Below, piece by piece: positions 39,878 to 55,500 of a stretch of 64,000 bases of DNA (positions are counted from its first letter, which is position 1; every line of letters starts with the position of its first letter). The DNA is from Minisyncoccota bacterium (lineage in GTDB: Bacteria; Patescibacteriota; Minisyncoccia; Phycocordibacterales; JAQTLZ01): contig JAQTLZ010000001.1 in NCBI GenBank assembly GCA_028714635.1, positions 173,272 to 237,271 of the forward strand, in the 5' to 3' direction. Position numbers and translations under genes: made by a program. The notes below the pieces were generated by a model. The model was not told the DNA's origin. It saw only the letters and a program-made list of their open reading frames with translations, and made no database searches.

Positions 39878-39964
39878 ATTTGAACTGTGAACCCATTGCG
39901 TGGCTTTCAGAACTTACTAAACAGAGACAGTATATCGGTTTAGCAGTCGAAAAGCTTGAAGCAC

Positions 39965-40639
39965 TTATGGCTTCTTAGGTCCTTTACCAACCAATCTCGC
40001 AAATGATTTTGCGATTGGTTCACCTTTATGAAAGACAAAAGTTCCTTCAACACCAAGTTCTTCTCTAATATCCCAGTAAAATCTTTCTATGCGGTTCGCT
40101 ATCTTCTTTGTAAAACGTGGGTCCACTTGAAAAATACCGTTAATATGGACGAAGCCATTCTCGTGGATATTTAGTTTTGTATTGAAGTGACCAACCTGAT
40201 TTCCTCTGGCACGGACTATCTGGTTTATTGATGCTTTTATACTATCCAGTCTTTTCTGGTAACGCTTACGCTTCTTTTCATCTTTGATGTGGTCAGTCAT
40301 CGTATAGAGCGATGATGTCTGCCTGTTTTCATCGAGAATTGTACCGAGAATGACAATCGCATCTCGTGAATAGACATCAACCATCGAAATAATAATGGTT
40401 AGACTTCGCTTCGGCTCATCTTCAGCAAAGTCATCTTTGTGTTTGCCAAGATACAGAATGAGGTCGGCTTGGTCTCGTAGACGATTGAGACAATCATAAA
40501 CATAATCACTTATGTTTCGTATCTTTCTTGTTTCGTCTATTACTGGTTTCTTTTTTGATTTCATATAGGTGAGGGTTTTGCTTCTTGTCTGCCCTGAGAA
40601 GTATTTGGAACGCTCCAACAATCCTATCTCTTTCTTCAT
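39965..40639 (-). CDS. hypothetical protein (last gene of the R-M/helicase operon)
   Basis: 224-aa ORF, basic, no recognised motif. Confidence 0.35.
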   Translation of the reverse strand: MKKEIGLLERSKYFSGQTRSKTLTYMKSKKKPVIDETRKIRNISDYVYDCLNRLRDQADLILYLGKHKDDFAEDEPKRSLTIIISMVDVYSRDAIVILGTILDENRQTSSLYTMTDHIKDEKKRKRYQKRLDSIKASINQIVRARGNQVGHFNTKLNIHENGFVHINGIFQVDPRFTKKIANRIERFYWDIREELGVEGTFVFHKGEPIAKSFARLVGKGPKKP

Positions 40640-40659
40640 TGGTCCAGTTCGGGACTTTA

Positions 40660-41142
40660 TTATTTTTTACTACCATTGATTTCCTTTATCATTTTCCAGC
40701 TCAATTCTTCGACCGTACCTAATTCATCCACAAAAAAGAGATACAGGTTCAATTTATCCATCACATCAAACGGCATCTTTCGTATGACCATTTTTCTGAA
40801 TGATGTAGGAAAAGCAACTCCGTATTTGTAGCCATACTTGTAACCTCTTGCTCCATTACGGTGCATTCTTGTCAGTATCTGTCCCAGTGCAGAGTTGAAG
40901 CTACTACTCTGGCTCCCTGAAGGGTTTATAACCTTTATTGAGGGGTCTCCTTTGGCTTCTATAAGCCAGTATCGTGCAAAGTTATTGTTTCGGACTTTTA
41001 TATCAACACCTTGCTCCCACAACTCCTTACTAGTTAGTGATTTGCTCCAGCCGTTTAGCTCAAGATGTCTAATGACAGACTTTTGTACAAAATCCTCTGT
41101 GATTATCTGTCTTTCTTTTTTGGTTGGTTTAGGGGTAATCAT
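40660..41142 (-). CDS. small PD-(D/E)xK-like nuclease-fold protein
   Basis: GVDIKV...WLIEAKG fits D...(E)xK restriction-endonuclease-like core; 160 aa from Met at 41142 (ORF opens at 41163 with GTG). Confidence 0.4.
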   Translation of the reverse strand: MITPKPTKKERQIITEDFVQKSVIRHLELNGWSKSLTSKELWEQGVDIKVRNNNFARYWLIEAKGDPSIKVINPSGSQSSSFNSALGQILTRMHRNGARGYKYGYKYGVAFPTSFRKMVIRKMPFDVMDKLNLYLFFVDELGTVEELSWKMIKEINGSKK

Positions 41143-41147
41143 AGAAT

Positions 41148-41171
41148 GGTTCACAACGTTCACATATTCAC
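41148..41171 (-). promoter_or_regulatory. triple GTGAA(C/T) direct repeat immediately upstream of the nuclease gene start
   Basis: Gene orientation: GTGAATATGTGAACGTTGTGAACCATTCTATG; 9-bp phasing. Confidence 0.45.
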
Positions 41172-42703
41172 TATGCGTTTATTTCTTCGATAAATCTCGA
41201 AGCTTTTCCTTTCCATAGTCGTGAACGTACATCAAACTTGAAGTCATCTTTGTTCACTGTGTTCACGTGCTTTCCTTCAATACTGATACTTGAGATGAGA
41301 TGCAGGGCTTTCTTTGCTCTTGTCATACCCACATAGAAAAGTCTTCGTTGGCTCTCAATAGTGTCGTTTCCTTTGGCACGATTTGGTATAACACCTTCAA
41401 TAAGACCAATCATAAACACGTGCTCCGCACCAAGTCCTTTCGACTTATGTATAGACATTATGTTTACTCGTTTTTCCACATCTTCCTCAATGAGCACGAA
41501 TAGGTTTTCAAGCTTTTCGTCTTCGGTATCACCCTCAGCATTGTTGTAGAAATCTGCTAGGTCTAGGAAATAAGGCTCCTGAAGTGCCGTATCAATATCT
41601 ACATATGTTGCTTTAGCTTCATTTGGAAGTTTGCTTGCGACCACACCAAATAGCTCTGCAAAGTCCTGTCCACTGGCATAGTGTTTCTTGATGGTCTCGT
41701 AGAGCTTCTTTCTTGATGACAAAACATTGTATCCAATCAATGCGAGATTGAGGTACTTATGCTTACCAAAAAGACTTCTCAGTACCCACGATTTCCTAAT
41801 GATTTCGGGCTCTACTTTAGCAACAAAATAGTTCTTGTAGTCGATACCAGAACCATCAAGTCGGTTAGTGAGGTTCTCCACGAGAAATCTCACAGGACTG
41901 AGTATCAGAACCTTCTCGTCAGTTGAAGCTCCAATGACCTTCTGGACCTCATCCAAGATATAGTCTGCCGTGTTGGTGTTTGAAGGAAACTGTTTTTGTA
42001 CAATAGTCCCAGCTTTACCTGTCTTCTCCCATTTTTTGTCTACTCGTTTTGTGTTGTTCTTTATCAGTTTCGTAGCACTATCTACCACACTGTCAGGACA
42101 TCTGTAGCACTTGTGTTCGTGCTCAAGCTTCTCGTGAGAAGGGTCTGAGTGGAGCGAAATAATCTTGTCGTTATCGGCATCTTTGAAGTCGTAGATACAC
42201 TGGTCATCATCACCAAGAATATAACTCTCGCTCATTACTTCTACGAGCAAATCAATGAGTTCTTGCTCATTTTTATTGAAGTCTTGGTATTCATCCACTA
42301 TCAATACGGAGTACGCTGAAAGCTTATCTTTGAGGTATGCAGGGTTTGATTTTGCATAGCTGACAAAGCGAGCAATCATCTGGTCAAAAGTTGTTGCTGA
42401 GAAGAAATTGCACAAATCATCGAACCCTATAGAAGTGCTTTTTGAGATTTGAGAAAGCTCACTAATCTCTAGCATATCGAGAACGTGCCTACTTTTGTCG
42501 TGATTGTATTTCACAGCAAACTTATGAAGGGTCATACAATTCTCAGGACTGACACCAATCGGTATCAGGGACTTCTTCAGGTCCTCAACAGTTGCGTTGG
42601 TAAAAGAGATAATCAAAACACCATCAAGATTTGGCTTTGATTGAATGATGTTCTTTATGTTTGTTGTTTTACCAGTCCCTGGTCCTGCGAGTAGTATTTT
42701 CAT
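41171..42703 (-). CDS. UvrD/PcrA-like superfamily 1 DNA helicase (short form)
   Basis: Walker A GPGTGKTT, motif II VDEYQD, motif III GDDDQCIY, motif V HKSKGLGAEHVF, motif VI YVGMTRAKKAL; 510 aa. Confidence 0.8.
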   Translation of the reverse strand: MKILLAGPGTGKTTNIKNIIQSKPNLDGVLIISFTNATVEDLKKSLIPIGVSPENCMTLHKFAVKYNHDKSRHVLDMLEISELSQISKSTSIGFDDLCNFFSATTFDQMIARFVSYAKSNPAYLKDKLSAYSVLIVDEYQDFNKNEQELIDLLVEVMSESYILGDDDQCIYDFKDADNDKIISLHSDPSHEKLEHEHKCYRCPDSVVDSATKLIKNNTKRVDKKWEKTGKAGTIVQKQFPSNTNTADYILDEVQKVIGASTDEKVLILSPVRFLVENLTNRLDGSGIDYKNYFVAKVEPEIIRKSWVLRSLFGKHKYLNLALIGYNVLSSRKKLYETIKKHYASGQDFAELFGVVASKLPNEAKATYVDIDTALQEPYFLDLADFYNNAEGDTEDEKLENLFVLIEEDVEKRVNIMSIHKSKGLGAEHVFMIGLIEGVIPNRAKGNDTIESQRRLFYVGMTRAKKALHLISSISIEGKHVNTVNKDDFKFDVRSRLWKGKASRFIEEINA

Positions 42704-42706
42704 AAT

Positions 42707-42730
42707 GGTTCACGATGTTCACTCATTCAC
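42707..42730 (-). promoter_or_regulatory. triple GTGAA(C/T) direct repeat immediately upstream of the helicase start
   Basis: Gene orientation: GTGAATGAGTGAACATCGTGAACCATTATG. Confidence 0.45.
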
Positions 42731-42733
42731 CAA

Positions 42734-45418
42734 CTACTTTGAGAATAGTCGGACCAGCTCATCGAAGTTCTTGGCTGGATTTTTTTCATAGTCTTCTTGT
42801 TTGACGTATAGAGCCTTGTAAACAACTCTACTTTGTCGAGCGTTTACGTCCTCACACCACTTTTGAAGTCTTTCAAACTTGATTTTGTCGTCCTCTTCTT
42901 CACGACCCTTTGTTTCAATGATGTACACCTGTTTCTCATCAACCTTCACAAAGAAGTCTGGGTAATAATTAGCGATAAAGCCTTCAGCATTCTTGTATTC
43001 AATACGGAGAGCAGTCGCTTCCTTGTTTTGGAAGTTCTTCGCAAACGAGATAGTGTCATCGCATTTTTCAAGGAAAGCAGAGAACTCAAGCTCAAAGTTA
43101 CTATCTCCCACAATTCGGTTGAATACGGATTTTTGAGGAATGAGGAACGCCTTATCATTTACCACAAAAGGGCGTGCATCACTTACCTTGATGTAGTTCT
43201 TGATTTCGGTATCACCCTTGTCTTGGACCGTTAGCTCGTTGATTGATTTCTTGAAGCCGTCTTTGATGAGTTTTATGTACTCAACTTCGGATAGGTTACG
43301 AAGAACATTCAGGTCTGTGAGCTCAACCTTGCTCTCAAACATATGGTTCTCAACAAAATCCTTCACTTTGCCAAAGAGGATGTCATAGCATCCGAATAGA
43401 CGCATTTCTCGCATTATTGCCTGTGCAAAGAAGCCAACGACACTCTGGTAGTTTGGTTCAATATCACCACTCAAAATCGTAGTGTGATGGACCGCTTCAG
43501 CAACCACATCTTTGAAGACAATTTCTCGTTTCTCTTGCTCACTGAACGTCTTTACCTGCACCTTCTCGTTTCCAAAAGTAGAAACATCCAAGTCAGCAAG
43601 ATTTTTGTACTCTCGCTGTATTCTGGCGGTCATTACAGGGATTTCAATATCCAGTTTTCCAATGTCCTTCTTGGTGTTCTCTTTATCAATCTCAATCACC
43701 ATAGGAGAAATAGGTTTTGAACCAGACCCCATCAAACGCTTTTCAAGGAGTACGCCTTCACCCTTGATACTCTCTACGAAGTCCATAAAGGCTGGAGTAC
43801 CGATAACACTCACGTATTCATCAATGTCATCTCTTCCAAAATACATTCTTCGGAGACCTCTACCAAGCGTTTGCTCAGGAAGGATTTTACTATCTGAAGC
43901 GTATGGTCGGAGACCAACAATAGTAGTTACGTTTTTTACGTCCCATCCTTCTTTGAGCATCATTACAGACACGATGACCTTGTAAGGACTTTCCCAGCTA
44001 TCAATCTCGTTCGATTGCTTTCGGAGTTGTTCAAGTTCTTCTTGATTTCTACCTGTTGTACTCTCAGAAATCTCACCACTCTTGTTCGTGTGAATAGTAA
44101 GGACCGCACCCTTTAGTTCAGGGTAGTTCATTTCAAGATACTGAGCGACATCATCACAGTTCTTGGTATCGTCAGTCATTATGAAGAGAAGGGACTTCTT
44201 GTTTGTAGGTAGGAGTTGTTCGTATGTCTTTCTCCATTCTTCAACACCAAGGTGAATGTGGTCTCTCCACTTCTCTGTGAATACAACGCTTTGACCTTCT
44301 TTGAGCTTTCCTCGACTTGCTTCGTCTGGCACAACTGGTTGCTTCACAACACGCTGGTGAATTGCTTCAACCAACGGATAGTCAGAAATAGTCTGTACGA
44401 AAATCGCACCTTTGTTGTTTTTAGGTGTTGCTGTTACGTCTAATTGGAGAGAAAGACCGCCACCTTTTTGCTTGAGTTTATTATCAATATCACGAATAGA
44501 TTTGAGCCACGCATTTTCTTCGTGGATATGGTGAGCCTCGTCATTGATAACAATAAGCTCATCAATATCTCGGACTACCATTCCTAAATCAACAGTTCCT
44601 TGATTTGTTTTAGTAACTGGCTTATCTCCAAGGAAATACTCAGAAGCATCCTCATCGTCTGCATCGTAATCTTTTACATCGCTTTCAAACACTCGGTGAA
44701 TGTTAGTGAGGAAAATGTTTCCAGTATCAGAGACGTTTTTGAGCTCATCTTGGAGGTGAAGTGTAATCTGGAAATCATCCTGCCAGTTTTGACCCATATA
44801 ACCGTTATCAGGAAGAACAGGGTCCAAGAAGAATATCTTGTTTCCTTCAAAGTCATTCTTGATACGCTCGAACACGATTACGTTTGGTGCGATGAGTAGG
44901 AAGTTCTTTGCGAGATTTGAGCCTTCTTCGTAGAGTTTATGGAAATACGCCCACGCAATCACCAAGCTCATTACCTTGGTCTTACCAGCTCCTGTAGCCA
45001 TCTTGATGACAAATCGGAGCCAATCCTCGGTGAACATCTGAGGGCTCAAAACGCCTGTAGAGTTGTAGCGTATCAAATCGTACTTATCCTTCACCTGAGC
45101 GACCTCGTAGAGCCATACAACGGTCTCCAGAGCCTCTCTTTGAGAGAAGTAGTATCGGAAGTTGTAGGATGTACCGTCCTGATTGTAGAGAGTGTGTTCT
45201 TCTTTGAACCACCACGTCAAAAGTGCTTTTGAGGTATCGCTAGCACCCTCATAATTATTATCTCGCCACGCTTTTACTTGCTTACGAAGTTCTGCAACGA
45301 GAGGAGGAATGAGCTTCTCAAATCCTTTTTCTCGAAGGTCCTCATCAGCAGGAAACCACCTAATTTCAGGATTGAGGATTGCGTATGGGTCTTTTGGAAA
45401 ATCTTTGTGTAGTGCCAT
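42734..45418 (-). CDS. res: type III restriction enzyme Res subunit (SF2 helicase + PD-(D/E)xK endonuclease)
   Basis: Walker A MATGAGKTKV, DEAHH motif II, helicase motif VI QTLGRGLRR, C-terminal YYPDF...IIETKG nuclease motif; 894 aa; directly follows mod. Confidence 0.85.
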   Translation of the reverse strand: MALHKDFPKDPYAILNPEIRWFPADEDLREKGFEKLIPPLVAELRKQVKAWRDNNYEGASDTSKALLTWWFKEEHTLYNQDGTSYNFRYYFSQREALETVVWLYEVAQVKDKYDLIRYNSTGVLSPQMFTEDWLRFVIKMATGAGKTKVMSLVIAWAYFHKLYEEGSNLAKNFLLIAPNVIVFERIKNDFEGNKIFFLDPVLPDNGYMGQNWQDDFQITLHLQDELKNVSDTGNIFLTNIHRVFESDVKDYDADDEDASEYFLGDKPVTKTNQGTVDLGMVVRDIDELIVINDEAHHIHEENAWLKSIRDIDNKLKQKGGGLSLQLDVTATPKNNKGAIFVQTISDYPLVEAIHQRVVKQPVVPDEASRGKLKEGQSVVFTEKWRDHIHLGVEEWRKTYEQLLPTNKKSLLFIMTDDTKNCDDVAQYLEMNYPELKGAVLTIHTNKSGEISESTTGRNQEELEQLRKQSNEIDSWESPYKVIVSVMMLKEGWDVKNVTTIVGLRPYASDSKILPEQTLGRGLRRMYFGRDDIDEYVSVIGTPAFMDFVESIKGEGVLLEKRLMGSGSKPISPMVIEIDKENTKKDIGKLDIEIPVMTARIQREYKNLADLDVSTFGNEKVQVKTFSEQEKREIVFKDVVAEAVHHTTILSGDIEPNYQSVVGFFAQAIMREMRLFGCYDILFGKVKDFVENHMFESKVELTDLNVLRNLSEVEYIKLIKDGFKKSINELTVQDKGDTEIKNYIKVSDARPFVVNDKAFLIPQKSVFNRIVGDSNFELEFSAFLEKCDDTISFAKNFQNKEATALRIEYKNAEGFIANYYPDFFVKVDEKQVYIIETKGREEEDDKIKFERLQKWCEDVNARQSRVVYKALYVKQEDYEKNPAKNFDELVRLFSK

Positions 45419-45422
45419 AGGA

Positions 45423-47582
45423 TTATAGTTTTACATCAATCACTCTGGTAGTGTCGTTACCGAAGATGTCCACGACCTTTACTGCAACTTTGTAGTCTCC
45501 CTTTGGAAGCTCTTTTGGTGCAGACTTGAACTCAAGATTTCTATTCTTCTTTGTACGGAAACTTTGCCATTCGTTGTCAAAGATATAGTCTCCAGTCCAA
45601 ACATCTTTTTCTTCACCGTCCTCAATAACCTTGATGATTTCTTTACGGTCCGCAAAGTTGTAATCAACCGCCCAGTAATCAATCCAGTCGCTCCACTTTT
45701 TTGTGAGGACCTCTCGTGATACAAGTTCGGTATCTTTGTCCTTTGTTACTTTCAATACCTGACCGTTTTCGATGATTACTTTTGACCTTCCAGCCTTTAG
45801 TTCTTCATCAATTGCACCATTGTCTTGGTTGTAGAAAACAGAGAAGTCAGTAATCTCAATTGAGAGTTCTTTCATTGAACCTCTACCAGTAATAATTGGT
45901 TTGATGTCGATGTAGGCAACGTCATAGAAGTTCACCTGACCACGCTCAACTGCACGCTTATCAAACACTTCACGTGGAATGATTTTGAAAGCAACATCAA
46001 TACCTTCGTCAGCATACTCACCAAAGTTCATTCCCATTTCGTAATCGAAACCGAGAACATCAATTTTAGTAAGATTTTTCTCCTTACACTCACTAACAAT
46101 TTCACGAATAAACTTTGAAGATACAGGAAGGTTGATAGGACCGATTGCTACCAATCTGTCTCGCTTCTTTCCTACAACGTGTGCGAAGCTCTCAACAGGT
46201 TCAGCTTTGTAGGCAGAGAGAATAAGCTTGATGAACTCTTTTTCTTTTCGGTCTGCTTGTTTTGCTTTCTCTTCAGCACGTAAGTCATCGTTAGTATTTA
46301 GGAAGCTTTCACGCTCGTATTTACCAACGTTCAATATCTCAAATGCACGGAAATCTTTTCCTGCTTTTTTGAGTTCACGTTGAATACCAACCATTCGCTT
46401 TCGAGAGGTGTGTATACCGAACTTACCTAGGTCAGTGCCTATCCACTTACGACCAAGTTTTTCAGCCGTTGCAATCGTTGTGCCTGAGCCAACAAAAAAG
46501 TCAGCTACTAAATCTCCCTCATTTGAGGAGGATTTTATAATTCTCTCTAGGAGGGCAGATGGTTTTTGTGTCGGGTAGTCTAGTCGCTCTTTTGACATCG
46601 AGTTTTCGTAAGGGATTTCCCACACATCGTTCGGTATCATTCCTTCCTCTGGATAGTAGGTTCTCCATTTACCTGCATCAAATCTTTTTCTACACACTTT
46701 TCCATTATCATCTTTATCCCTAAAGTGAGATTTTATGTATTCATCAGAGTAAGGAACACGAGCTCCTTTTTCGTTGAAGTACGTTTTGTTTGATTTTCCA
46801 TAGTAAAAAATAGTGTCGTGCTTTTGTGCAAACCTATCATCTGGTCTTCCTAGTGTTGAGTAATACCAAATAATTTCATTCCTGAAGTTTTCTTTTCCAA
46901 ATATCTCATCGAGCGACATTCTCATAAAAGCACTAACTCGCCAATCACAATGCACATAAATACTTCCATCTTCGGCGAGTAGCTCGTGCATCAACTTCAG
47001 ACGCTCGTAAATCATTGCAATAAAGCTGTCTGCACCTTTACCCCACGTATCACGATAGGCAATCTCTTCAATTACAGAGGGCTTCTTTGTGAAGCTGTCA
47101 TTTTCTTCACCAATTGAAATGTTCATTGAAAAGTCAGCTCCCACATCAAAAGGAGGGTCAATATAGATAAGTTTGAGACCCCCTTGAGCTTCAATCTCTT
47201 TTCGCATTGGACCGTTCTTGAGAGATGAGAGAATGAGTTTGTTATCTCCCCAGATTAGTTTGTTGGTCCAGCCAGTAATTTGCTTACCAGAGAAATCAAA
47301 CAACGTACCTTTGTCGCCAAACTCTTTACCTTCTCGTGGTTCATCAATCTGCTCAATTACTTGGAATGGAAGAACTACGTTTGTAACTTCGTTAGTCTTT
47401 CCATTCCAAACAAGCTCGACTTCACGGTCATCTTTGAAGAGAAGGAAGCGGTACTTTTCTGGAAGGGGTTTTCCAGCTTCGAGGAACTTCACAATGTCTC
47501 GCTTTTCGTTGTCAGAAAGATAGAGTGAGCCACTCTTGGTCTGTCCGTTCTTTTGTTGTTCGTTGTCTTTTTTCATATACAT
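45423..47582 (-). CDS. mod: type III R-M DNA methyltransferase Mod (beta-class N6A/N4C MTase)
   Basis: Motif IV IYIDPPFD precedes motif I FFVGSGTTIATAEKLGRKWIGTD (beta-class order); 719 aa. Confidence 0.85.
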   Translation of the reverse strand: MYMKKDNEQQKNGQTKSGSLYLSDNEKRDIVKFLEAGKPLPEKYRFLLFKDDREVELVWNGKTNEVTNVVLPFQVIEQIDEPREGKEFGDKGTLFDFSGKQITGWTNKLIWGDNKLILSSLKNGPMRKEIEAQGGLKLIYIDPPFDVGADFSMNISIGEENDSFTKKPSVIEEIAYRDTWGKGADSFIAMIYERLKLMHELLAEDGSIYVHCDWRVSAFMRMSLDEIFGKENFRNEIIWYYSTLGRPDDRFAQKHDTIFYYGKSNKTYFNEKGARVPYSDEYIKSHFRDKDDNGKVCRKRFDAGKWRTYYPEEGMIPNDVWEIPYENSMSKERLDYPTQKPSALLERIIKSSSNEGDLVADFFVGSGTTIATAEKLGRKWIGTDLGKFGIHTSRKRMVGIQRELKKAGKDFRAFEILNVGKYERESFLNTNDDLRAEEKAKQADRKEKEFIKLILSAYKAEPVESFAHVVGKKRDRLVAIGPINLPVSSKFIREIVSECKEKNLTKIDVLGFDYEMGMNFGEYADEGIDVAFKIIPREVFDKRAVERGQVNFYDVAYIDIKPIITGRGSMKELSIEITDFSVFYNQDNGAIDEELKAGRSKVIIENGQVLKVTKDKDTELVSREVLTKKWSDWIDYWAVDYNFADRKEIIKVIEDGEEKDVWTGDYIFDNEWQSFRTKKNRNLEFKSAPKELPKGDYKVAVKVVDIFGNDTTRVIDVKL

Positions 47583-47602
47583 TTGGTTGATTAGCTAATA
47601 AG

Positions 47603-47821
47603 TTACTTTGGCGACTGGACAAACTTTTCGAGGTCCTCTTTTTTATATCTTCTTGCTCTACGTTCACCAATTCGTATGGCAGGAAGTATGCCTTTCTTAT
47701 CCCATTGCCGAAGCGTGTTGGGATGACACTTGAGATAAGCAGATGCTTCTTCCAAAGTGAGAAGTTCTGGCAAATCCCCATCATTTTGCGGTGTTTTTTT
47801 CGTTGATTTCATACCTAACAT
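47603..47821 (-). CDS. small helix-turn-helix DNA-binding protein (excisionase/MerR-like)
   Basis: LTLEEASAYLKCHPNTLRQWDKKGILPAIRIGERRARRYKKEDLEKFV resembles Xis/AlpA-type HTH; 72 aa; leads the mod-res operon. Confidence 0.5.
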   Translation of the reverse strand: MLGMKSTKKTPQNDGDLPELLTLEEASAYLKCHPNTLRQWDKKGILPAIRIGERRARRYKKEDLEKFVQSPK

Positions 47822-47843
47822 TTGATAACATTATTATACATAA

Positions 47844-47878
47844 CCTTCACAACGTTCACAATGTGCACGGACCGTGAA
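47844..47878. promoter_or_regulatory. GTGAAC-type repeat cluster in the divergent intergenic region between the HTH gene and the 431-aa gene
   Basis: ccTTCACaacGTTCACaatGTGCACggaccGTGAAaacc; adjacent TATGTATAAT (minus-strand sense) could be the HTH promoter. Confidence 0.45.
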
Positions 47879-47889
47879 AACCAATGTAA

Positions 47890-49185
47890 ATGTATATGAG
47901 TAGCCTCAAAACCACTGAGAAGAAGATACTTGAAAAGCTTTTCAATATGGAAGGTGGCTATGTGCTGAGTTTTACTGATAAATCATTCGAGAAGTTCCTC
48001 AAAGATGACTTCAATATCTCGGTCTACAGTGAGATGTACGACTTGGACTTTCCAAGTAAATCAAAAGCAAACCGACTACGTGGTATCTGGAGTGTAGAAG
48101 ATGATGCGAAAGTTGGAGGTATTATTTTGGAACTTGTTGAGTGTGCGGAGACCGACATTTTGACATCAGGCAAAGAGATGTCTGCTATTGAAAAGGACCT
48201 TACTTCAAAGGCACGTGATATAGGGATACGCTTACTGTTTACAGAAATTGCTGACGGAAGCACCAAACCAGAAGTTCAGAAGCTGAAGACTAAGGCTGAA
48301 CTCATAAAGGGTTTCAATAGTATTGATTTCAAGGAGATGGAGCCTAACAAGCGTATCTATCTGCTAAAGGTTCTGTTCTCTTACTACGATGCGATTATTC
48401 GTGCATACAGAGGCTCAGGATTGTTCTATCTCACATCAGGCATTGATGACCTCAATGACTATTTCAAGGTCCTCAGAAAGCGAATGATTGAGCTACTCGA
48501 TACATACGACACTTTTGTTGAAATGAAGAAGTCGCCCACTTATACGGACTTCATTGAGCCTGTAACAAGCCTTTACGCAAGTCAGGACTATCTTGAAGTC
48601 GTGTGGGAAGAAAGCGTGCTCCCTATGCTCATCAATTTCCGTGAAGACATAGCTGATAGAGACCTGTTTGATAATCAGTCAGAAGTTCACAAAGTTCACG
48701 TTGAGGTGTTGAGCTTTTTGGATGCTATCTCAAAAGAGATTGAGGCTCTCAATGGGTATATGAGCCAGCAAACAAAGAAGTTCTACGATACTGACCTACC
48801 AGCAGAGAAAGAAAGGCTATCCAATATCTTTCCATCCGAAGAGCTATACATCACAAAACAAGGTGATGATTTTCGATACAAAGGAAAGCTACTGAACCTC
48901 TCGAAGAAAGCCGACTACTACAAAGTTTTTTGTGCTTTATACGCACTCCTTCCGCAAGGTGGAGAAATTGAATACAAGCCTCTTATAACTGAAATCAAAA
49001 GCAGAATACCGAAGACCAAAGCGAAGTCTGACGAAGAAATGCGAAAGCTTATACAAGGTAATCTCACTGATAAAAGCAACGGCTTTATCCGCTATGCAAA
49101 ACTGCCAAATACGGAGGACAATTCCAAGCCACTCATCGAAGTTATAAAGGGCTTTGGAGTGCGTTTCAACAATAAAGCTGGCTAA
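47890..49185 (+). CDS. hypothetical protein
   Basis: 431 aa, acidic, begins MYM; no recognised motif. Confidence 0.4.
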   Translation: MYMSSLKTTEKKILEKLFNMEGGYVLSFTDKSFEKFLKDDFNISVYSEMYDLDFPSKSKANRLRGIWSVEDDAKVGGIILELVECAETDILTSGKEMSAIEKDLTSKARDIGIRLLFTEIADGSTKPEVQKLKTKAELIKGFNSIDFKEMEPNKRIYLLKVLFSYYDAIIRAYRGSGLFYLTSGIDDLNDYFKVLRKRMIELLDTYDTFVEMKKSPTYTDFIEPVTSLYASQDYLEVVWEESVLPMLINFREDIADRDLFDNQSEVHKVHVEVLSFLDAISKEIEALNGYMSQQTKKFYDTDLPAEKERLSNIFPSEELYITKQGDDFRYKGKLLNLSKKADYYKVFCALYALLPQGGEIEYKPLITEIKSRIPKTKAKSDEEMRKLIQGNLTDKSNGFIRYAKLPNTEDNSKPLIEVIKGFGVRFNNKAG

Positions 49186-49224
49186 TCCTGAAACTTCCTG
49201 AGAATAGATAAGTTCTCCTGACTA

Positions 49225-49259
49225 AAACACCTTTGAAATAAAGGGTGTTTTTTCGTTTT
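49225..49259 (+). terminator. rho-independent terminator
   Basis: aaacaccttt gaaata aagggtgttt then ttttcgtttt. Confidence 0.75.
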
Positions 49260-49361
49260 CCTGAATGTTCAGGAAGTACGCAGAACAATCTCAAAAAGCA
49301 AAAATCAATCTATAGAACTTTTCTTGGCGGAAGTTCACTTACTCATAAAACACCAATGTAA

Positions 49362-49664
49362 ATGATTATGAAAAGAAACAATGAGAGCGATGAGCTCCAC
49401 AACGTCCCTTTGGACGATTACAAAAACTATTACTACTCGAACGATATTGATGTCGCATCAACCCTCATATGTAAAGGATATGAATTGGTAGACATCACAC
49501 CGATAAGCCACAACAAGGCTACCTTCGTATTCAAAAATCATCCTGCAATTACGGATGCGGTTGAAGGCTTTTGGAGCAATCGAATTGAGGTCCGACCTCT
49601 TGAGTTCGCTAACGTCAGAAAAAATCTGAAATCACGCATCTTCGGAATGCGGAAAACTTACTAG
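49362..49664 (+). CDS. small hypothetical protein typical of mobile-element replication modules
   Basis: 100 aa; YYSNDIDVASTLICKGYELVDITPISHNKATFVFKNHPAITDAVEGFWSNRIEV resembles a small family I recall from phage/ICE loci; low certainty. Confidence 0.35.
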   Translation: MIMKRNNESDELHNVPLDDYKNYYYSNDIDVASTLICKGYELVDITPISHNKATFVFKNHPAITDAVEGFWSNRIEVRPLEFANVRKNLKSRIFGMRKTY

Positions 49665-49676
49665 CCCATAAATGAA

Positions 49677-51032
49677 ATGTATATGCAAAACAAAGAAGAA
49701 AGACAAGAAAAAATTATCCTGAAGACAAGTATCACAACGCCAAACGAGCTCTACGAAATGGTGTTTGACCGAAGTGAAAACAAAACCTCTTTCATAAAAA
49801 TTGATAGAGATGGAAAAATTGAGACCCTGCTGGAAGAGGTGGAAATTGGCGGAAGAAAGTATCGACCACTTCCATCTGATTACAACCTCGTGGACAAGAA
49901 CGTCATCTTGTTTCCATCACTTGCTACACCTTATGAAAGCGAGGAAGAAATACTCACTGAAGTACAGCATTTTATCCATAAACACCTAGACATCTCTGAG
50001 GTATTCGAGCGTATAGCTACTTACTACGTTCTGTTTACGTGGCTATTCGACAAGTTCAATGAGGTCCCGTATCTACGAGCAATTGGTGATTTTGGAAGCG
50101 GTAAATCACGCTTTCTCCAAGCTATCGGAATACTCTGCTACAAGCCTGTATTTACTGGAGGTGCGACTACTCCAAGTCCGATATTCCGCATCATCAATGA
50201 GGTAAAAGGAACGCTCATCATAGACGAAGCTGACTTCAAGTTCTCGGATATGACATCAGAGATTGTGAAGATATTGAACACTGGATACCAGAAAGGAATG
50301 TCCGTGCTTCGTTCTGAAGGAAAAGGGACCTTTGAAGTAAAAGCCTACGATGTATTTTGTCCGAAAATTGTAGCCACTCGTGAGACCTTCGCTGACAAGG
50401 CACTTGAGAGCCGATTTCTCGTTGAAGAAATGGGTGCTGGAAAGTTGCGTACCGACATCCCACGCACTCTTGATGAGAGCTTTTATGAGGGTGCTGAATT
50501 GATACGAAACAAGCTCCTGATGTGGCGACTGAAGAACTACTTTGAGCCGATAGAACGTAGGCACGATTTGATTGAAGGAATACATCCACGACTGAACCAA
50601 ATCGTTATGCCACTTTTATCCATCATCAAAGACGAGAGTATCAGAAATCAGCTCAAGACTTTCATTGTTCAATACAACGCTGAACTGGTAGCAGACCGTG
50701 GTCTTTCGTGGGAAAGCGACATTGTTTTTGCAGTCCTGAAATTGGAGTACGAATTGAAAGGAAACGAGCTAACAGTCAAACAGATTACTGACGAAGTGAA
50801 CAAGGAAATAGATGTAAGCGATGACACCCTACAGGCTCGAAAAGTCGGGTGGTATTTACGAGCAAAACTACAACTCAAGCCTTATAAAACTCGAAAAGGA
50901 TACGTACTTTCTTTCAAGGAAAACAGGAAGCGATTGGATATGTGGAAGGAACGCTTTGGTATCACCGATGCGGATATTCGTGGTGAACAAGTGAATGTCG
51001 TGAACGATGCTGAAGCTATTACCAATAACTAA
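49677..51032 (+). CDS. P-loop NTPase, probable replication/primase-associated protein (VirE/D5-like)
   Basis: Walker A AIGDFGSGKS, Walker B LIIDEADF, about 130 aa N-terminal domain before the P-loop; 451 aa. Confidence 0.45.
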   Translation: MYMQNKEERQEKIILKTSITTPNELYEMVFDRSENKTSFIKIDRDGKIETLLEEVEIGGRKYRPLPSDYNLVDKNVILFPSLATPYESEEEILTEVQHFIHKHLDISEVFERIATYYVLFTWLFDKFNEVPYLRAIGDFGSGKSRFLQAIGILCYKPVFTGGATTPSPIFRIINEVKGTLIIDEADFKFSDMTSEIVKILNTGYQKGMSVLRSEGKGTFEVKAYDVFCPKIVATRETFADKALESRFLVEEMGAGKLRTDIPRTLDESFYEGAELIRNKLLMWRLKNYFEPIERRHDLIEGIHPRLNQIVMPLLSIIKDESIRNQLKTFIVQYNAELVADRGLSWESDIVFAVLKLEYELKGNELTVKQITDEVNKEIDVSDDTLQARKVGWYLRAKLQLKPYKTRKGYVLSFKENRKRLDMWKERFGITDADIRGEQVNVVNDAEAITNN

Positions 51033-51041
51033 ATCATTCTT

Positions 51042-51554
51042 ATGGAAAACAAGTCAAAAGGTGGTCCAAAAACAACTGAAGGAAAGGCAATCTCGAAGTA
51101 CAACGCAATCAAACACGGATTGCTCTCAAAAGAGGTGCTTGTTGATGGTGAAGATGAGAAGACACTCCTAGAACTCAATCAAAGCGTACACGACCAATTT
51201 CAGCCAGTAGGACCGATAGAAAAGATGCTGGTAGACCGTGTTGTATCAAATCTCTGGAGACTACGAAGAGCTGTCTTTGTCGAGACTGCAACGATGAACT
51301 GGTATCGAGCTGACATCAATCTCTTTCCAATTGGACAGGATGATGAGCAACAAGAACGACAGAACGTAAAGAATATGTTGAGCAACGAAAGTATCGAGAC
51401 CATTCTTCGATACGAGACAACCATTGAAAGAAGCATCTTCAGGGCTCTTCACGAGCTTGAGCGTATACAGGCTAAAAGAAACGGGAAAGACGTTTCAATT
51501 CCAGCCGTGGTCGATGTAAACGTGGATAGTTCGTTTCGCAAAAATGACCAATAA
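51042..51554 (+). CDS. hypothetical protein
   Basis: 170 aa, helical, no motif. Confidence 0.35.
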   Translation: MENKSKGGPKTTEGKAISKYNAIKHGLLSKEVLVDGEDEKTLLELNQSVHDQFQPVGPIEKMLVDRVVSNLWRLRRAVFVETATMNWYRADINLFPIGQDDEQQERQNVKNMLSNESIETILRYETTIERSIFRALHELERIQAKRNGKDVSIPAVVDVNVDSSFRKNDQ

Positions 51555-51569
51555 CAGTGAGGTTCTCAA

Positions 51570-52211
51570 TTGATTTCGGAAGATAAAAACATTATGAGTA
51601 AAACAGAAGCAGATGACTGCAAGAAAATAGAAATATGGTGGCTCCTGCGAGACATCAAGGAGAAAGGTGGTTACAAATACACCACTGTTTCTTGGGGTGA
51701 AAATGGTTCACACGGAAGCGTATCTGTGCAGGTATCTGTATGGGACGAAGAAAAATACGCTCGCTTTATTTACTCGCAAACTGACCATTCTACAGGTGAA
51801 AAGAAGGACTTCGACTACAAGGTCCCCATCATCACCACACCTTGTCATCTAGGTGGAGAACGATATTGGTTCAAGTGCTCTCTATTCAAAAACGGAGAGC
51901 AATGTGGACGACGTGTTGGTGTGCTCTACAAAGATGGTGATTGGTTCGGTTGTCGTCATTGTTACGAGCTCACCTACAAATCAAAAAACGTAAACAAGGG
52001 GTACAAACACTATCCGATGTTTCGAGTTCTTGAGCTAAGGATGGAAATAGACAGGCTCGAAGAGAAGTCACATCGACACACATACAACGGAAAACCAACC
52101 AAGAAGCGGATGCGACTAGAAAAGCTTTATCGAGAAGCAATGCTCCAGCATCGTGCTTTTTACGAGACTGAAAAAGGTCTCAAAGTCAGCAAAAAAGGTC
52201 GAGAGTTCTAA
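51570..52211 (+). CDS. hypothetical protein with Cys-rich zinc-ribbon-like region
   Basis: CHLGGERYWFKC...CGRRVG...CRHC pattern; 213 aa. Confidence 0.35.
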   Translation: MISEDKNIMSKTEADDCKKIEIWWLLRDIKEKGGYKYTTVSWGENGSHGSVSVQVSVWDEEKYARFIYSQTDHSTGEKKDFDYKVPIITTPCHLGGERYWFKCSLFKNGEQCGRRVGVLYKDGDWFGCRHCYELTYKSKNVNKGYKHYPMFRVLELRMEIDRLEEKSHRHTYNGKPTKKRMRLEKLYREAMLQHRAFYETEKGLKVSKKGREF

Positions 52212-52225
52212 TCAAAAATGTTATT

Positions 52226-52468
52226 ATGAGTAAGTTACACGAAAGCCTGAATAATGCTCCGCAACCGCAACCTTCCAAGGAGCAGGACCAGCTTTTGTGT
52301 GAAGGTCCAAAGCACCTGCTCTCGAAAGATACCCTTGATGCTTTGGAAGAACTCGGTGGTGTTCTCAGGAACATTCACAGGAGAATGGTATCTGAAGGAT
52401 ACGAAATTGTAGATGGAAACATCCGCAAAGTAGTACCGCAAAATGTAAATGTATATGAAAAAGCCTAA
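52226..52468 (+). CDS. hypothetical small protein
   Basis: 80 aa; overlaps the recombinase start by 20 nt. Confidence 0.3.
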   Translation: MSKLHESLNNAPQPQPSKEQDQLLCEGPKHLLSKDTLDALEELGGVLRNIHRRMVSEGYEIVDGNIRKVVPQNVNVYEKA

Positions 52469-54146: not shown

Positions 54147-54187
54147 GCCTTGAGAAGGCTCCGTCCTGACCGTTAGACGATAGGGCC
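54116..54187 (-). tRNA. tRNA-Glu (anticodon CUC); 3' part overlaps the recombinase gene end; one acceptor-stem mismatch
   Basis: Reverse complement GGCCCTATCGTCTAACGGTCAGGACGGAGCCTTCTCAAGGCTCAAATCAGAGTTCGATTCTCTGTAGGGGTC; D-arm and anticodon loop TTCTCAA closely resemble bacterial tRNA-Glu; acceptor pair 2:71 is G:G. Confidence 0.55.
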
Positions 54188-55183: not shown

Positions 55184-55500
55184 TGGGGTAGTATAACAGT
55201 TTGTTTGACAAAAATGATGCGTAGGAATAAACTGGATTTATGAGTATGTTAGCTGACAAATTCTTTCATTTCTTTTATTTTAGCCGTTAAACGGGAGATT
55301 TTGTTGCTATTTATAACTTAAACCTAGCAAAGAAAAACTCCCGCAAAACGGGAGTTTTTTCTCATCTGGAAATTGAGCGTTTGGATAAAAAGCAAGTTCT
55401 CAATTTCCAGGTCAGAAGATTTGGATTCATGCCCGTGCGGGTTGTGGATGCCCATTTCGGGCAGAATGCGTTCTTCATGCTTTTGGGGAAGGGAGGTCGT

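What the first reader, a model, noticed from the sequence alone, without database searches (positions are those of the whole stretch)
39965..47821. Type III R-M operon extended by a short UvrD-like helicase, a PD-(D/E)xK-like mini-nuclease and a 224-aa unknown: candidate composite defence module
Six co-directional, tightly spaced minus-strand genes: HTH (72 aa), Mod (719 aa, beta-class DPPF then FxGxG), Res (894 aa, DEAHH helicase plus YYPDF...ETKG nuclease), a 510-aa SF1 helicase with complete UvrD motifs I-VI, a 160-aa protein with a D...EAK core, and a 224-aa protein with no motif. Type III systems normally end at res. A GajB-sized UvrD-like helicase plus a separate small nuclease-fold protein appended in the same transcription unit is not a textbook arrangement. 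Each of the two appended genes carries its own triple GTGAAC repeat at its start, which suggests separate regulation. This may be an uncharacterised helicase-nuclease defence or anti-defence pair riding with the R-M system.
Basis: partly seen in the sequence, partly recalled or inferred. Interest (0 to 1): 0.65.

Follow-up and report, generated by a model that had tools for sequence, protein, structure and literature searches.

The report
Restriction operon with add-on defence genes
A DNA-restriction operon on an integrated mobile element in a tiny uncultivated bacterium has picked up four extra small genes (a helicase, a nuclease-fold protein, a mini-protein and an RNase-type protein). Each of these also rides on other restriction operons elsewhere, so this is a patchwork of separate add-ons and not one new machine.

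Summary
The "224-aa unknown" is a 199-aa AbiU2-like HEPN protein with an invariant Rx5H motif. A seventh conserved gene of 56 aa lies between it and the 160-aa protein.

HTH-Mod-Res is a bona fide Type III R-M operon. It forms the left arm of a roughly 14-kb integrated element with a large serine recombinase next to tRNA-Glu.

The three appended genes are not a conserved unit. The trio recurs only in near-identical copies of this element. In one of those copies Res and the helicase are already decayed.

Elsewhere the 160-aa PD-(D/E)xK protein (closest fold XisH, no Pfam model) abuts the 3' end of other genes. At least 18 of 41 loci show Type I, IIG or III R-M genes nearby, and none shows the helicase or the HEPN gene.

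The compact UvrD-like helicase is embedded in Type I, IIG or III R-M operons in 13 or more of 23 loci. It has no fixed partner and rarely a GajA. Four different HEPN families lie beside it.

The GTGAAC repeats are real. They belong to an island-wide set of 9-bp direct repeats (8 sites against 0.15 expected) that overlaps the operon promoter. This fits a BldC/Xis-like HTH operator.

Verdict: a mosaic defence operon, a new variant of a known kind, of moderate interest.

The parts
47833..47868 (-). Operon promoter with three 9-bp direct repeats (GTGCACATT GTGAACGTT GTGAAGGTT). The -35 TTGTGA lies inside the repeats, followed by a 17-nt spacer and -10 TATAAT.
   Evidence: It is the best promoter-like site of the region at 10/12 matches. 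The repeats are shown. The region is conserved in L047 and, in diverged form, in L054.
47603..47821 (-). 72-aa winged-HTH protein of the excisionase/BldC/MerR-like type; the putative regulator.
   Evidence: HTH_17 1.9e-13. TIGR01764 excise 1.6e-9 and HTH_BldC 2.3e-5. PADLOC mad1 1.1e-11. It is 100% identical in L047 and 86% in L054.
45423..47582 (-). Type III Mod, a beta-class N6-adenine methyltransferase with an exchangeable target-recognition domain.
   Evidence: PADLOC MTase_III 2.6e-118 and Pfam N6_N4_Mtase 1.8e-48. Residues ~201-350 are only 34-68% identical to otherwise 86-100% identical alleles in L047, L060 and L008.
42734..45418 (-). Type III Res: an SF2 helicase with a C-terminal PD-(D/E)xK endonuclease.
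   Evidence: ResIII 3.4e-17, REase_III 1.4e-21, NCBIfam BPTD_3080 family 1.4e-80. DEAHH and YYPDF..ETKG are read. Identity is 92-99% in L047, L008 and L060.
42708..42730 (-). Repeat leader (GTGAAT GA GTGAAC ATC GTGAAC) ending 4 nt before the helicase ATG.
   Evidence: The same leader precedes the helicase in L054 behind a different upstream gene.
41171..42703 (-). Compact 510-aa UvrD-like SF1 helicase, a family that rides in R-M operons.
   Evidence: UvrD-helicase and UvrD_C domains, and PADLOC GajB 1.5e-41. By sequence the closest solved structures are UvrD, Rep and PcrA at about 1e-35.
41149..41171 (-). Repeat leader (GTGAAT AT GTGAAC GTT GTGAAC) ending 6 nt before the P160 ATG.
   Evidence: It is absent upstream of P160 in all 41 other loci.
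40660..41142 (-). 160-aa stand-alone PD-(D/E)xK-fold protein (P160), an unnamed family.
40506..40676 (-). Conserved 56-aa ORF (sORF) with core W-T-x-E-E-R-x-R-I-V-G-A-F-x-I-L-L-x-x-D-K-K-Q-N-P-H-L-Y. It overlaps the P160 stop and the P224 start.
   Evidence: The same peptide is found after the helicase in L054 and L060, after P160 in L011, L023 and L008, and fused to a HAD-like domain in L061. Substitutions are biased to the third codon position, 11/6/18.
39965..40564 (-).
39889..39964 (.). Conserved non-coding tail marking the left end of the element; contains the hairpin CTAAAC..GTTTAG.
   Evidence: It is conserved in L047, L054 and L144 up to GGGT(T/C)CAC, after which the flanks differ.
47890..54187 (+). 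Right arm of the element: p431, a DUF5659 protein, a P-loop 451-aa protein, p170, p213 and a large serine recombinase (52449-54146), abutting tRNA-Glu (54115-54187, minus strand).
   Evidence: The element contains further GTGAAC repeat sites at 48685, 50983-51005 and 53503. L054 holds a decayed copy.

Best explanation
The locus is a mosaic defence operon carried on the left arm of an integrated serine-recombinase element in a Patescibacteria (CPR) genome. An intact Type III R-M system (HTH-Mod-Res) is followed by four separately mobile accessory genes. Each belongs to a family that recurs at the 3' end of, or inside, R-M operons of different types.

The four genes are:
1. a compact UvrD-like helicase;
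2. a small PD-(D/E)xK protein whose closest solved fold is XisH;
3. a 56-aa protein;
4. an AbiU2-like HEPN protein, a predicted RNase.

What is shown: the domain identities, the separability of the genes across loci, their recurrent linkage to R-M operons, the single strong promoter, and the island-wide 9-bp repeat.

What is inferred:
- The add-ons act as independent back-up layers, as PrrC does inside EcoprrI: HEPN RNase as an abortive effector, helicase as a DNA-end or translocation sensor, P160 as a DNase. They are not subunits of one helicase-nuclease machine.
- The 72-aa BldC/Xis-like HTH binds the GTGAACNNN direct repeats head-to-tail. It would do so at its own promoter and again just upstream of the helicase, P160 and p170 genes, tuning expression of the whole element.
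For: - Type III core. TRD allele swapping between near-identical Mods.
- Element context: serine recombinase, tRNA-Glu, DUF5659. Decayed copies L054 and L144 share the same left end.
- Separability: L008 is Mod-Res-P160. L054 is HTH-mad2-like MTase-Hel-sORF-P224. L060 is Mod-x-Res-Hel-sORF. L144 has Res and Hel decayed but P160, sORF and P224 intact. P224 stands alone in L050 and L145.
- P160 loci: about 30 of 38 abut a co-directional upstream gene. At least 18 of 41 have R-M genes within 3 genes.
- Helicase loci: Type I operons in six (M-S-Hel-R where all subunits are on the contig), Type III in five, IIG in two. There is no recurrent non-R-M partner.
- HEPN. AbiU2 HEPN proteins in R-M operons, and the multi-pronged R-M plus HEPN concept, are described in PMC3710099.
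- Repeats. [quoted passage not shown] The HTH hits the BldC and excisionase models.
- Phage origin is unlikely: P224 and the helicase family itself are absent from IMG/VR, and P160 occurs on one viral contig.
Against: - No experiment exists. Defence function is inferred from context only.
- PADLOC has no model for P160 or P224.
- The trio is retained together in three near-identical copies, and Hel-sORF-P224 in a fourth, more diverged copy. Some cooperation therefore cannot be excluded.
- HEPN genes of four different families lie next to the helicase in five loci, which could reflect a functional pairing.
- The HTH-repeat link is untested. More distant HTH homologues (L006 and others) show no such repeats.
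- The leaders lie too close to the ATG to be ordinary promoters.
Confidence: 0.6

Rival explanations
1. The helicase, the 160-aa nuclease and the 199-aa protein form one obligate composite system (a Gabija-like helicase-nuclease pair plus a third subunit) that extends the Type III enzyme.
For: The genes are co-directional and tightly spaced under one promoter. The helicase matches GajB HMMs at 1.5e-41. The trio is kept in window, L047 and L144.
Against: Outside near-identical copies the trio never co-occurs. L008 lacks the helicase and L054 lacks P160. In L144 the helicase has lost its Walker A motif while P160 and P224 stay intact. No GajA-like ATPase-TOPRIM is present in the island.
Confidence: 0.1
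2. The functional unit is helicase + sORF + HEPN, a helicase-sensed RNase-executed abortive module that rides in R-M operons. P160 is an unrelated later insertion between the helicase and the sORF.
For: L054 has Hel-sORF-P224 without P160. The sORF follows the helicase in L054, L060 and L061. HEPN proteins of other families flank the helicase: AbiV in L064 (1.2e-24), Abi_C in L072 (4e-11), and a weak DUF4145 hit in L070. UvrD-DUF4145 HEPN fusions are listed in PMC3710099.
Against: Most helicase loci have no HEPN neighbour. HEPN genes are common R-M passengers anyway. P224 occurs without this helicase in L050 and L145. The sORF also follows P160 where there is no helicase (L008, L011, L023).
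Confidence: 0.2
3. The extra genes serve the mobile element and not defence. P160 would be an XisH-like excision cofactor for the large serine recombinase, and the helicase an element replication or transfer helicase.
Against: Most P160 and helicase loci are R-M operons with no recombinase nearby. No XisI-like partner was noticed, though none was searched for specifically. Similarity to XisH is at fold level only, 18% identity, and other top hits are restriction enzymes and HamA.
Confidence: 0.07
4. P160 is a selfish, promoter-less nuclease cassette (homing-endonuclease-like or addiction-like). It inserts behind expressed genes, often R-M genes, and contributes nothing to host defence.
For: Its amino-acid conservation is very high (69-97% among the 120 closest clusters, 49-85% across the 41 species-level loci) beside unrelated neighbours. 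It almost always abuts the 3' end of a co-directional gene. Neighbours also include non-defence genes such as DnaJ, T2SSE and YibE_F.
Against: No conserved target sequence is seen at the junctions. The enrichment for R-M and defence neighbours fits a defence-island resident equally well.
Confidence: 0.1

Closest known systems
Type III restriction-modification (EcoP15I/EcoP1I type)
   Same: A beta-class Mod with a central TRD is followed by a Res with an SF2 helicase N-terminal part and a PD-(D/E)xK C-terminal part. TRD allele exchange occurs between strains.
   Different: The operon is preceded by a BldC/Xis-like HTH instead of a classical C protein. It is followed, in what appears to be the same operon, by four extra genes.
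PrrC/EcoprrI and other HEPN genes embedded in R-M operons (Anantharaman et al. 2013, PMC3710099)
   Same: A HEPN-domain gene rides in an R-M operon. AbiU2-family HEPN proteins are listed there as occurring in R-M operons. The concept of a second abortive layer applies.
   Different: P224 has no ABC-ATPase domain. It sits at the very 3' end after other passengers and also occurs solo. Its activation signal is unknown.
Gabija (GajA + GajB)
   Same: The helicase is GajB-sized and scores on PADLOC GajB models (1.5e-41). It is a UvrD-like SF1 ATPase with all motifs.
   Different: There is no GajA (ATPase-TOPRIM) partner here, and only 2 of ~23 family loci have one. By sequence the protein is nearer to UvrD, Rep and PcrA than to any solved GajB. 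The family's habitual context is inside R-M operons.
XisH (fdxN element excision controlling factor, PDB 2okf)
   Different: Identity is 18% and there is no Pfam XisH hit. No XisI-like partner gene was noticed (none was searched for). The usual neighbours are R-M genes.
BldC / Xis family of small winged-HTH proteins
   Same: The protein is a ~70-residue MerR-like wHTH with weak hits to the BldC and excisionase models. The candidate sites are head-to-tail direct repeats of 9 bp, the footprint of one BldC subunit (PMC5859096).
   Different: The repeat sequence (GTGAACNNN) is unrelated to the BldC consensus AATTNNNNC. Binding has not been tested.
MADS (methylation-associated defence system)
   Same: The HTH hits mad1, and the methyltransferase that replaces Mod/Res in L054 hits mad2 (1.1e-16).
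   Different: MAD6, 7 and 8, which define the system, are absent. mad1 and mad2 are generic regulator and MTase homologues.

Membership tests
Type III R-M | Mod: N6/N4 methyltransferase with motif IV (DPPF/Y) before motif I (FxGxG) and a TRD between them | tested here: met
   N6_N4_Mtase 1.8e-48; MTase_III 2.6e-118. DPPF then FVGSGTT are read. The variable block at residues 201-350 is shown.
Type III R-M | Res: SF2 helicase motifs plus a C-terminal PD-(D/E)xK endonuclease, encoded directly after mod | tested here: met
   ResIII 3.4e-17; REase_III 1.4e-21. ATGAGKT, DEAHH and PD..ETK are read. The gap after mod is 4 nt.
Type III R-M | ATP-dependent cleavage requiring two inversely oriented unmethylated sites | not testable with these tools
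   A biochemical property.
Gabija | GajB: UvrD-like helicase | tested here: met
   PADLOC GajB PDLC00117 1.5e-41. This is a generic UvrD-like match: the top PDB hits are UvrD, Rep and PcrA.
Gabija | GajA: adjacent ABC-ATPase + TOPRIM (OLD-family) nuclease | tested here: not met
   No such gene is found in the island. AAA_15 + OLD_TOPRIM occurs in only 2 of ~23 helicase-family loci.
HEPN superfamily (AbiU2 family) | Rx4-6H motif, conserved | tested here: met
   R120-x5-H126 (199-aa numbering) is invariant in 28 sequences.
HEPN superfamily (AbiU2 family) | Profile match to PF18734 above the curated cut-off | tested here: inconclusive
   The window protein scores E 0.043 and 13.7 bits against a cut-off of 26.8. 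16 of 28 homologues match at E<=0.01, best 2.1e-6. Two database homologues carry a precomputed PF18734 hit.
HEPN superfamily (AbiU2 family) | All-alpha helical-bundle fold resembling solved HEPN domains | tested here: inconclusive
PD-(D/E)xK nucleases / XisH | Alpha-beta-beta-beta-alpha-beta core with D...(D/E)xK on strands 2 and 3 | tested here: met
PD-(D/E)xK nucleases / XisH | Sequence membership of Pfam XisH, and a partner XisI | tested here: not met
   No Pfam hit at E<=0.1. No PDB sequence hit. XisI-like neighbours were not searched for specifically; none appeared among the top Pfam families of the flanking genes.
MADS | MAD6, MAD7 and MAD8 present (mandatory in the published model) | tested here: not met
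   Only mad1 (HTH) is hit in the window. No other island protein hits PADLOC. The requirement is quoted.
BldC-family regulator | Small wHTH lacking dimerisation and effector domains | tested here: inconclusive
   The protein is 72 aa. HTH_BldC scores 2.3e-5 and 24 bits against a cut-off of 77; the excisionase domain scores 38 bits against a cut-off of 28.8.
BldC-family regulator | Binds head-to-tail direct repeats, one subunit per 9 bp | not testable with these tools
   Candidate sites with a 9-bp period are present and enriched. Binding itself needs EMSA or footprinting.
PrrC-type R-M-embedded abortive nuclease | HEPN nuclease fused to an ABC-ATPase and held inactive by the R-M complex | tested here: not met
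   P224 is a single 199-aa HEPN domain with no ATPase. The analogy is functional only.

The most novel reading that the evidence does not exclude
The compact ~510-aa UvrD-like helicase defines an unrecognised class of R-M-embedded guard. It sits inside Type I, IIG and III operons and pairs with interchangeable HEPN RNases (AbiU2, AbiV, Abi_C, DUF4145-like) to trigger abortive infection when restriction is evaded. Alongside it, the unnamed, highly conserved P160 PD-(D/E)xK family and the 56-aa protein would be further new R-M-riding modules. In this element all of them would be wired to a BldC-like regulator through 9-bp direct repeats.
Probability: 0.22. Interest if true: 0.7.

Novelty: new variant of a known kind. 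Interest (0 to 1): 0.45.

Why it matters
R-M operons are known to carry passenger abortive-infection genes such as PrrC and various HEPN proteins. This locus, with the comparative data gathered here, adds three passenger families that have no name in Pfam, NCBIfam or PADLOC, or only a misleading one:
- a compact UvrD-like helicase that would be mislabelled as an orphan GajB;
- a small, very strongly conserved PD-(D/E)xK protein;
- a 56-aa protein.

All three are common in Patescibacteria, whose immune repertoire is poorly charted. The locus also offers a concrete, testable regulatory circuit: a BldC/Xis-like HTH with 9-bp direct repeats at the promoter and in front of individual passenger genes. 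If the helicase-HEPN pairing proves functional, it would be a new two-gene defence type.

Tried and rejected
- Gabija: rejected, because there is no GajA.
- MADS: rejected, because only the generic mad1/mad2-type hits occur.
- att direct repeat of the tRNA-Glu 3' end at the far end of the island: none longer than 11 nt. The left end was instead placed at ~39889 by comparison with L054 and L144.
- tRNA-like look of 39880-39960: no Rfam or ARAGORN support.
- Structure search of P224: dominated by generic and designed helical bundles, so not decisive.
- PDB sequence searches with P160 and P224 profiles: nothing significant.
- PLSDB plasmids: no homologue of the helicase (at E<=1e-30) or of P160 (at E<=1e-5).
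- IMG/VR: one P160 locus, no P224, and only distant UvrD relatives.
- AFDB Foldseek library: not available.
- Repeats upstream of more distant HTH homologues: none found, so the operator idea lacks comparative support beyond the close relatives.
- GTGAAC as the Type III recognition site: considered but untestable. GTGAAC is not depleted in the window, 37 observed against 27.6 expected.

Full report
**Observation**

The six minus-strand ORFs are present as described. Their domain content is as follows.

- The HTH is an HTH_17/excisionase-type winged helix of 72 aa. It scores 1.6e-9 on TIGR01764 and gives weak hits to BldC and MAD1.
- Mod is an N6_N4 methyltransferase. It scores 2.6e-118 on PADLOC MTase_III, and DPPF precedes FVGSGTT.
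- Res carries ResIII with ATGAGKT and DEAHH, plus a C-terminal YYPDF...ETKG.
- The 510-aa protein has the UvrD N- and C-terminal domains. Walker A, DEYQD, GDDDQ, SIHKSKG and VGMTRAK are invariant across 27 homologues.
- The 160-aa protein (P160) has no Pfam, NCBIfam or PADLOC hit. D47 and E62-A-K64 are invariant.

Two corrections are needed.

First, the "224-aa unknown" really starts at M26 and is 199 aa. Nearly all homologues are 196-199 aa. In L054 the upstream stretch of that frame contains a stop codon.

Second, the region upstream of M26 belongs to a seventh gene, a 56-aa ORF at 40506-40676. Its peptide, W-T-x-E-E-R-x-R-I-V-G-A-F-x-I-L-L-x-x-D-K-K-Q-N-P-H-L-Y, is conserved in seven other loci. 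Substitutions between window and L054 are biased to the third codon position, 11/6/18.

**Setting**

Upstream on the plus strand lie alr, mraZ, rsmH, ftsL and a PBP, and the PBP gene ends at 39877. Beyond the six genes, transcribed divergently on the plus strand, lie:

- a 431-aa protein (p431);
- a DUF5659 protein;
- a P-loop 451-aa protein;
- proteins of 170 and 213 aa;
- a 565-aa large serine recombinase, which abuts tRNA-Glu at 54115-54187.

The stretch from about 39.9 to 54.2 kb is therefore an integrated element, and the finding is its left arm.

Related copies fix the left end at about 39889. A conserved 76-nt tail follows the HEPN gene in L047, L054 and L144, after which the flanks diverge.

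L054 is a decayed copy. There the first 49 codons of p431 are joined to the last ~160 codons of the recombinase.

Homologues are named Paceibacterota, Gracilibacteria, Nomurabacteria, Colwellbacteria and the like. The host is therefore probably a Patescibacteria (CPR) bacterium.

**Are the three appended genes a unit?**

They are not. The full array recurs only in near-identical copies.

- L047 has HTH at 100% identity, Res 99%, Hel 99%, P160 97% and P224 96%.
- L144 has Res frameshifted and fused to helicase codon ~40, so Walker A is lost. P160 (99%), the sORF (95%) and P224 (96%) remain intact.

Other arrangements exist:

- L008 has Mod (82%), Res (94%) and P160 (85%) with no helicase.
- L054 has HTH (86%), a mad2-like methyltransferase, Hel (81%), the sORF and P224 (77%), with no P160, Mod or Res.
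- L060 has Mod, a 326-aa gene, Res (92%), Hel (82%) and the sORF, with no P160 or P224.
- P224 relatives stand alone among unrelated genes in L050-53. In L145 one lies in another island at the same dcw site.

None of 41 species-level P160 loci carries the helicase or P224.

**What each family does elsewhere**

*P160.*

- The 120 closest of 259 clusters are at least 69% identical to P160, and all named ones are Patescibacteria.
- There are 230 representatives at 50% clustering. Nearly all are stand-alone proteins of 130-160 aa.
- In about 30 of 38 loci P160 abuts a co-directional upstream gene with a gap of 30 nt or less, or an overlap.
- Neighbours at position -1 and -2 are dominated by R-M components: ResIII, Methylase_S, N6_Mtase, N6_N4_Mtase, HSDR_N, Eco57I/UPF0020, D12 and MmeI.
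- Other defence genes also appear: nSTAND3, SduA_C, RVT_1, RadC, GmrSD_N and AAA_15+OLD-TOPRIM.
- A conservative per-locus labelling finds R-M genes within three genes in at least 18 of 41 loci. One example is HsdM-HsdS-x-P160-HsdR in L024.
- Three loci have a convergent large serine recombinase at position +1.

*Helicase.*

- The family has more than 1400 full-length relatives at 40-95% identity.
- In 23 loci with flanks it is embedded co-directionally in R-M operons.
- Type I operons account for six loci (L063, L064, L066, L067, L070, L071), with the order HsdM-HsdS-..-Hel-HsdR where all subunits are on the contig.
- Type III operons account for five: window, L047, L060, a different Mod/Res pair in L061, and L068.
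- Type IIG enzymes flank it in L072 and L073, and a mad2-like MTase in L054.
- All-against-all clustering of neighbours finds no recurrent partner other than R-M subunits.
- A GajA-like ATPase-TOPRIM is seen in only two loci.
- By sequence the nearest solved structures are UvrD, Rep and PcrA (about 1e-35). No GajB appears at 1e-10 or better.
- The family is absent from IMG/VR, and no PLSDB plasmid matched at E<=1e-30.

HEPN proteins of four different families lie next to the helicase:

- AbiU2-like here and in L054;
- AbiV in L064 (1.2e-24);
- Abi_C in L072 (4e-11);
- a weak DUF4145 hit in L070.

This may be a functional pairing. It may equally reflect that HEPN genes are themselves frequent R-M passengers, as Anantharaman et al. 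2013 documented. That paper lists AbiU2 as occurring "in R-M operons" and lists UvrD-DUF4145 fusions.

*sORF.* It follows the helicase in L054 and L060. It follows P160 in the window, L047, L011 and L023. It comes one gene after P160 in L008. In L061 it is fused to a HAD-like domain right after the helicase. A C-terminal remnant precedes solo P224 in L050-53. It marks the 3' end of these arrays. I could not assign it a function.

**The GTGAAC repeats**

Both leaders are real:

- TTGGTGAATGAGTGAACATCGTGAACCATTATG before the helicase;
- GTGAATATGTGAACGTTGTGAACCATTCTATG before P160.

They are not private to these two genes. GTGAACNNNGTGAAC with at most one mismatch occurs 8 times in the window against 0.15 expected, and no shuffle out of 100 reached that count. 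All eight sites lie inside the island. The motif is at background level in 1.28 Mb of other loci.

Triple repeats sit at four places:

- in the HTH promoter (GTGCACATT GTGAACGTT GTGAAGGTT, 47845-47868);
- 4 nt before the helicase ATG;
- 6 nt before the P160 ATG;
- 37 nt before the p170 gene on the other arm.

In the promoter the repeats contain the -35 (TTGTGA), followed by 17 nt and TATAAT. This is the best promoter-like site of the region and the only good one on the minus strand.

The helicase leader travels with the helicase gene, because L054 has it behind a different upstream gene. L008's Res-P160 junction keeps only the Res-proximal half. The leaders therefore also mark recombination joints between cassettes.

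The 9-bp period equals the footprint of one subunit of BldC. BldC is a 68-residue MerR/Xis-like wHTH that multimerises head-to-tail on direct repeats (PMC5859096). The 72-aa HTH here hits the excisionase and BldC models.

The inference is that the HTH autoregulates the operon and contacts the passenger genes and other element genes through these repeats. Comparative support is limited to close relatives.

**Mechanism: what is shown and what is inferred**

Shown:

- an intact Type III R-M with exchangeable specificity (the Mod TRD block at residues ~201-350 is 34-68% identical between otherwise 86-100% identical alleles);
- passenger genes with intact catalytic motifs;
- the separability of those genes;
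- their habitual residence in R-M operons;
- a single strong promoter.

Inferred, at roughly 0.6 overall: restriction is the first line. The HEPN protein is an abortive RNase layer in the PrrC tradition. The helicase and P160 are further independent layers or sensors, and the whole is tuned by the HTH.

Rivals are listed with their tests:

- an obligate composite system (0.1);
- a helicase-sORF-HEPN module with P160 as an insertion (0.2);
- element-maintenance functions, with P160 as an XisH-like excision cofactor (0.07);
- P160 as a selfish nuclease cassette (0.1).

**Comparison and novelty**

The core is an ordinary Type III system. R-M operons with embedded HEPN abortive genes are known. 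Gabija and MADS membership both fail on defining components.

What is new in degree:

- the stacking of four passengers behind res;
- the recognition that this helicase family is an R-M passenger and not an orphan GajB;
- an unnamed, strongly conserved PD-(D/E)xK family and a 56-aa family with the same habit;
- a candidate BldC-type operator set.

I rate the finding a new variant of a known kind, with interest 0.45.

Noticed in passing
It overlaps the P160 stop by 17 nt and the true P224 start by 59 nt. The same peptide closes related arrays in L054, L060, L008, L011 and L023, and is fused to a HAD-like domain in L061. Its function is unknown.
   Followed up: partly
window 47845-47868, 48685-48699, 50983-51005, 53503-53517 (plus the two leaders): There is an island-wide set of GTGAACNNN 9-bp direct repeats, 8 sites against 0.15 expected. 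The set includes a site antisense inside p431, a triple site before p170 and a site inside the recombinase gene. It is a candidate regulon of the 72-aa BldC/Xis-like HTH.
   Followed up: partly
window 45423-47582 (Mod residues ~201-350): The target-recognition block is only 34-68% identical to Mods in L047, L060 and L008 that are otherwise 86-100% identical. This is a specificity-allele swap between near-identical elements.
   Followed up: yes
window 47890-49185 (+), p431: Its N-terminal ~140 residues are homologous to the N-terminal domain of two HEPN proteins (Abi_C in L072, DUF4145-like in L070) that lie next to the helicase family in R-M operons. p431 has a different C-terminal region with no family hit. 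It may be another Abi-type gene with a swapped effector.
   Followed up: partly
window 39889-54187; L054, L144, L145: An integrated element lies between the dcw cluster (PBP) and tRNA-Glu, with a large serine recombinase. No att direct repeat was found. Decayed copies sit at another chromosomal site (next to Pyr_redox and FtsZ) in L054 and L144. L145 has a different island at the same dcw site, with a recombinase remnant, a diversity-generating retroelement (RVT_1 + bAvd) and a 902-aa SF1 helicase near a P224 homologue.
   Followed up: partly
window 41171-42703 (helicase residues 195-202): An H-x-H-x-C-x-x-C motif (HEHKCYRCPD) is invariant or nearly so in the family. It may be a zinc site, and I do not recall one in canonical UvrD, Rep or PcrA.
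   Followed up: no
L054:5950-7971: In the related array the Type III Mod/Res pair is replaced by a single 673-aa protein. It combines a GTP cyclohydrolase II-like domain with a mad2-like methyltransferase domain (PADLOC mad2 1.1e-16), which is an unusual fusion.
   Followed up: no
window 39889-39964: A 76-nt tail after the HEPN gene is conserved in four copies of the element. It contains the hairpin CTAAAC-N15-GTTTAG and looks tRNA-like, but is not called by ARAGORN or Rfam. It may be a terminator or an attachment-site remnant.
   Followed up: partly
window 55328-55431 (-): There is a sub-threshold Rfam match to the Phe_leader (34 bits against a gathering score of 55, E 0.021). It lies just upstream of, and on the opposite strand to, the ORF at 55381 that precedes a prephenate dehydratase gene. 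It is probably chance.
   Followed up: no
L006:8563-9309, L027:3830-4579, L031:8720-9451, L065:7563-8315: A ~250-aa PDDEXK_1/Cas4-like protein follows P160 in three loci. A protein with the same Pfam domain follows the helicase in one locus. It is another candidate passenger of these operons.
   Followed up: no
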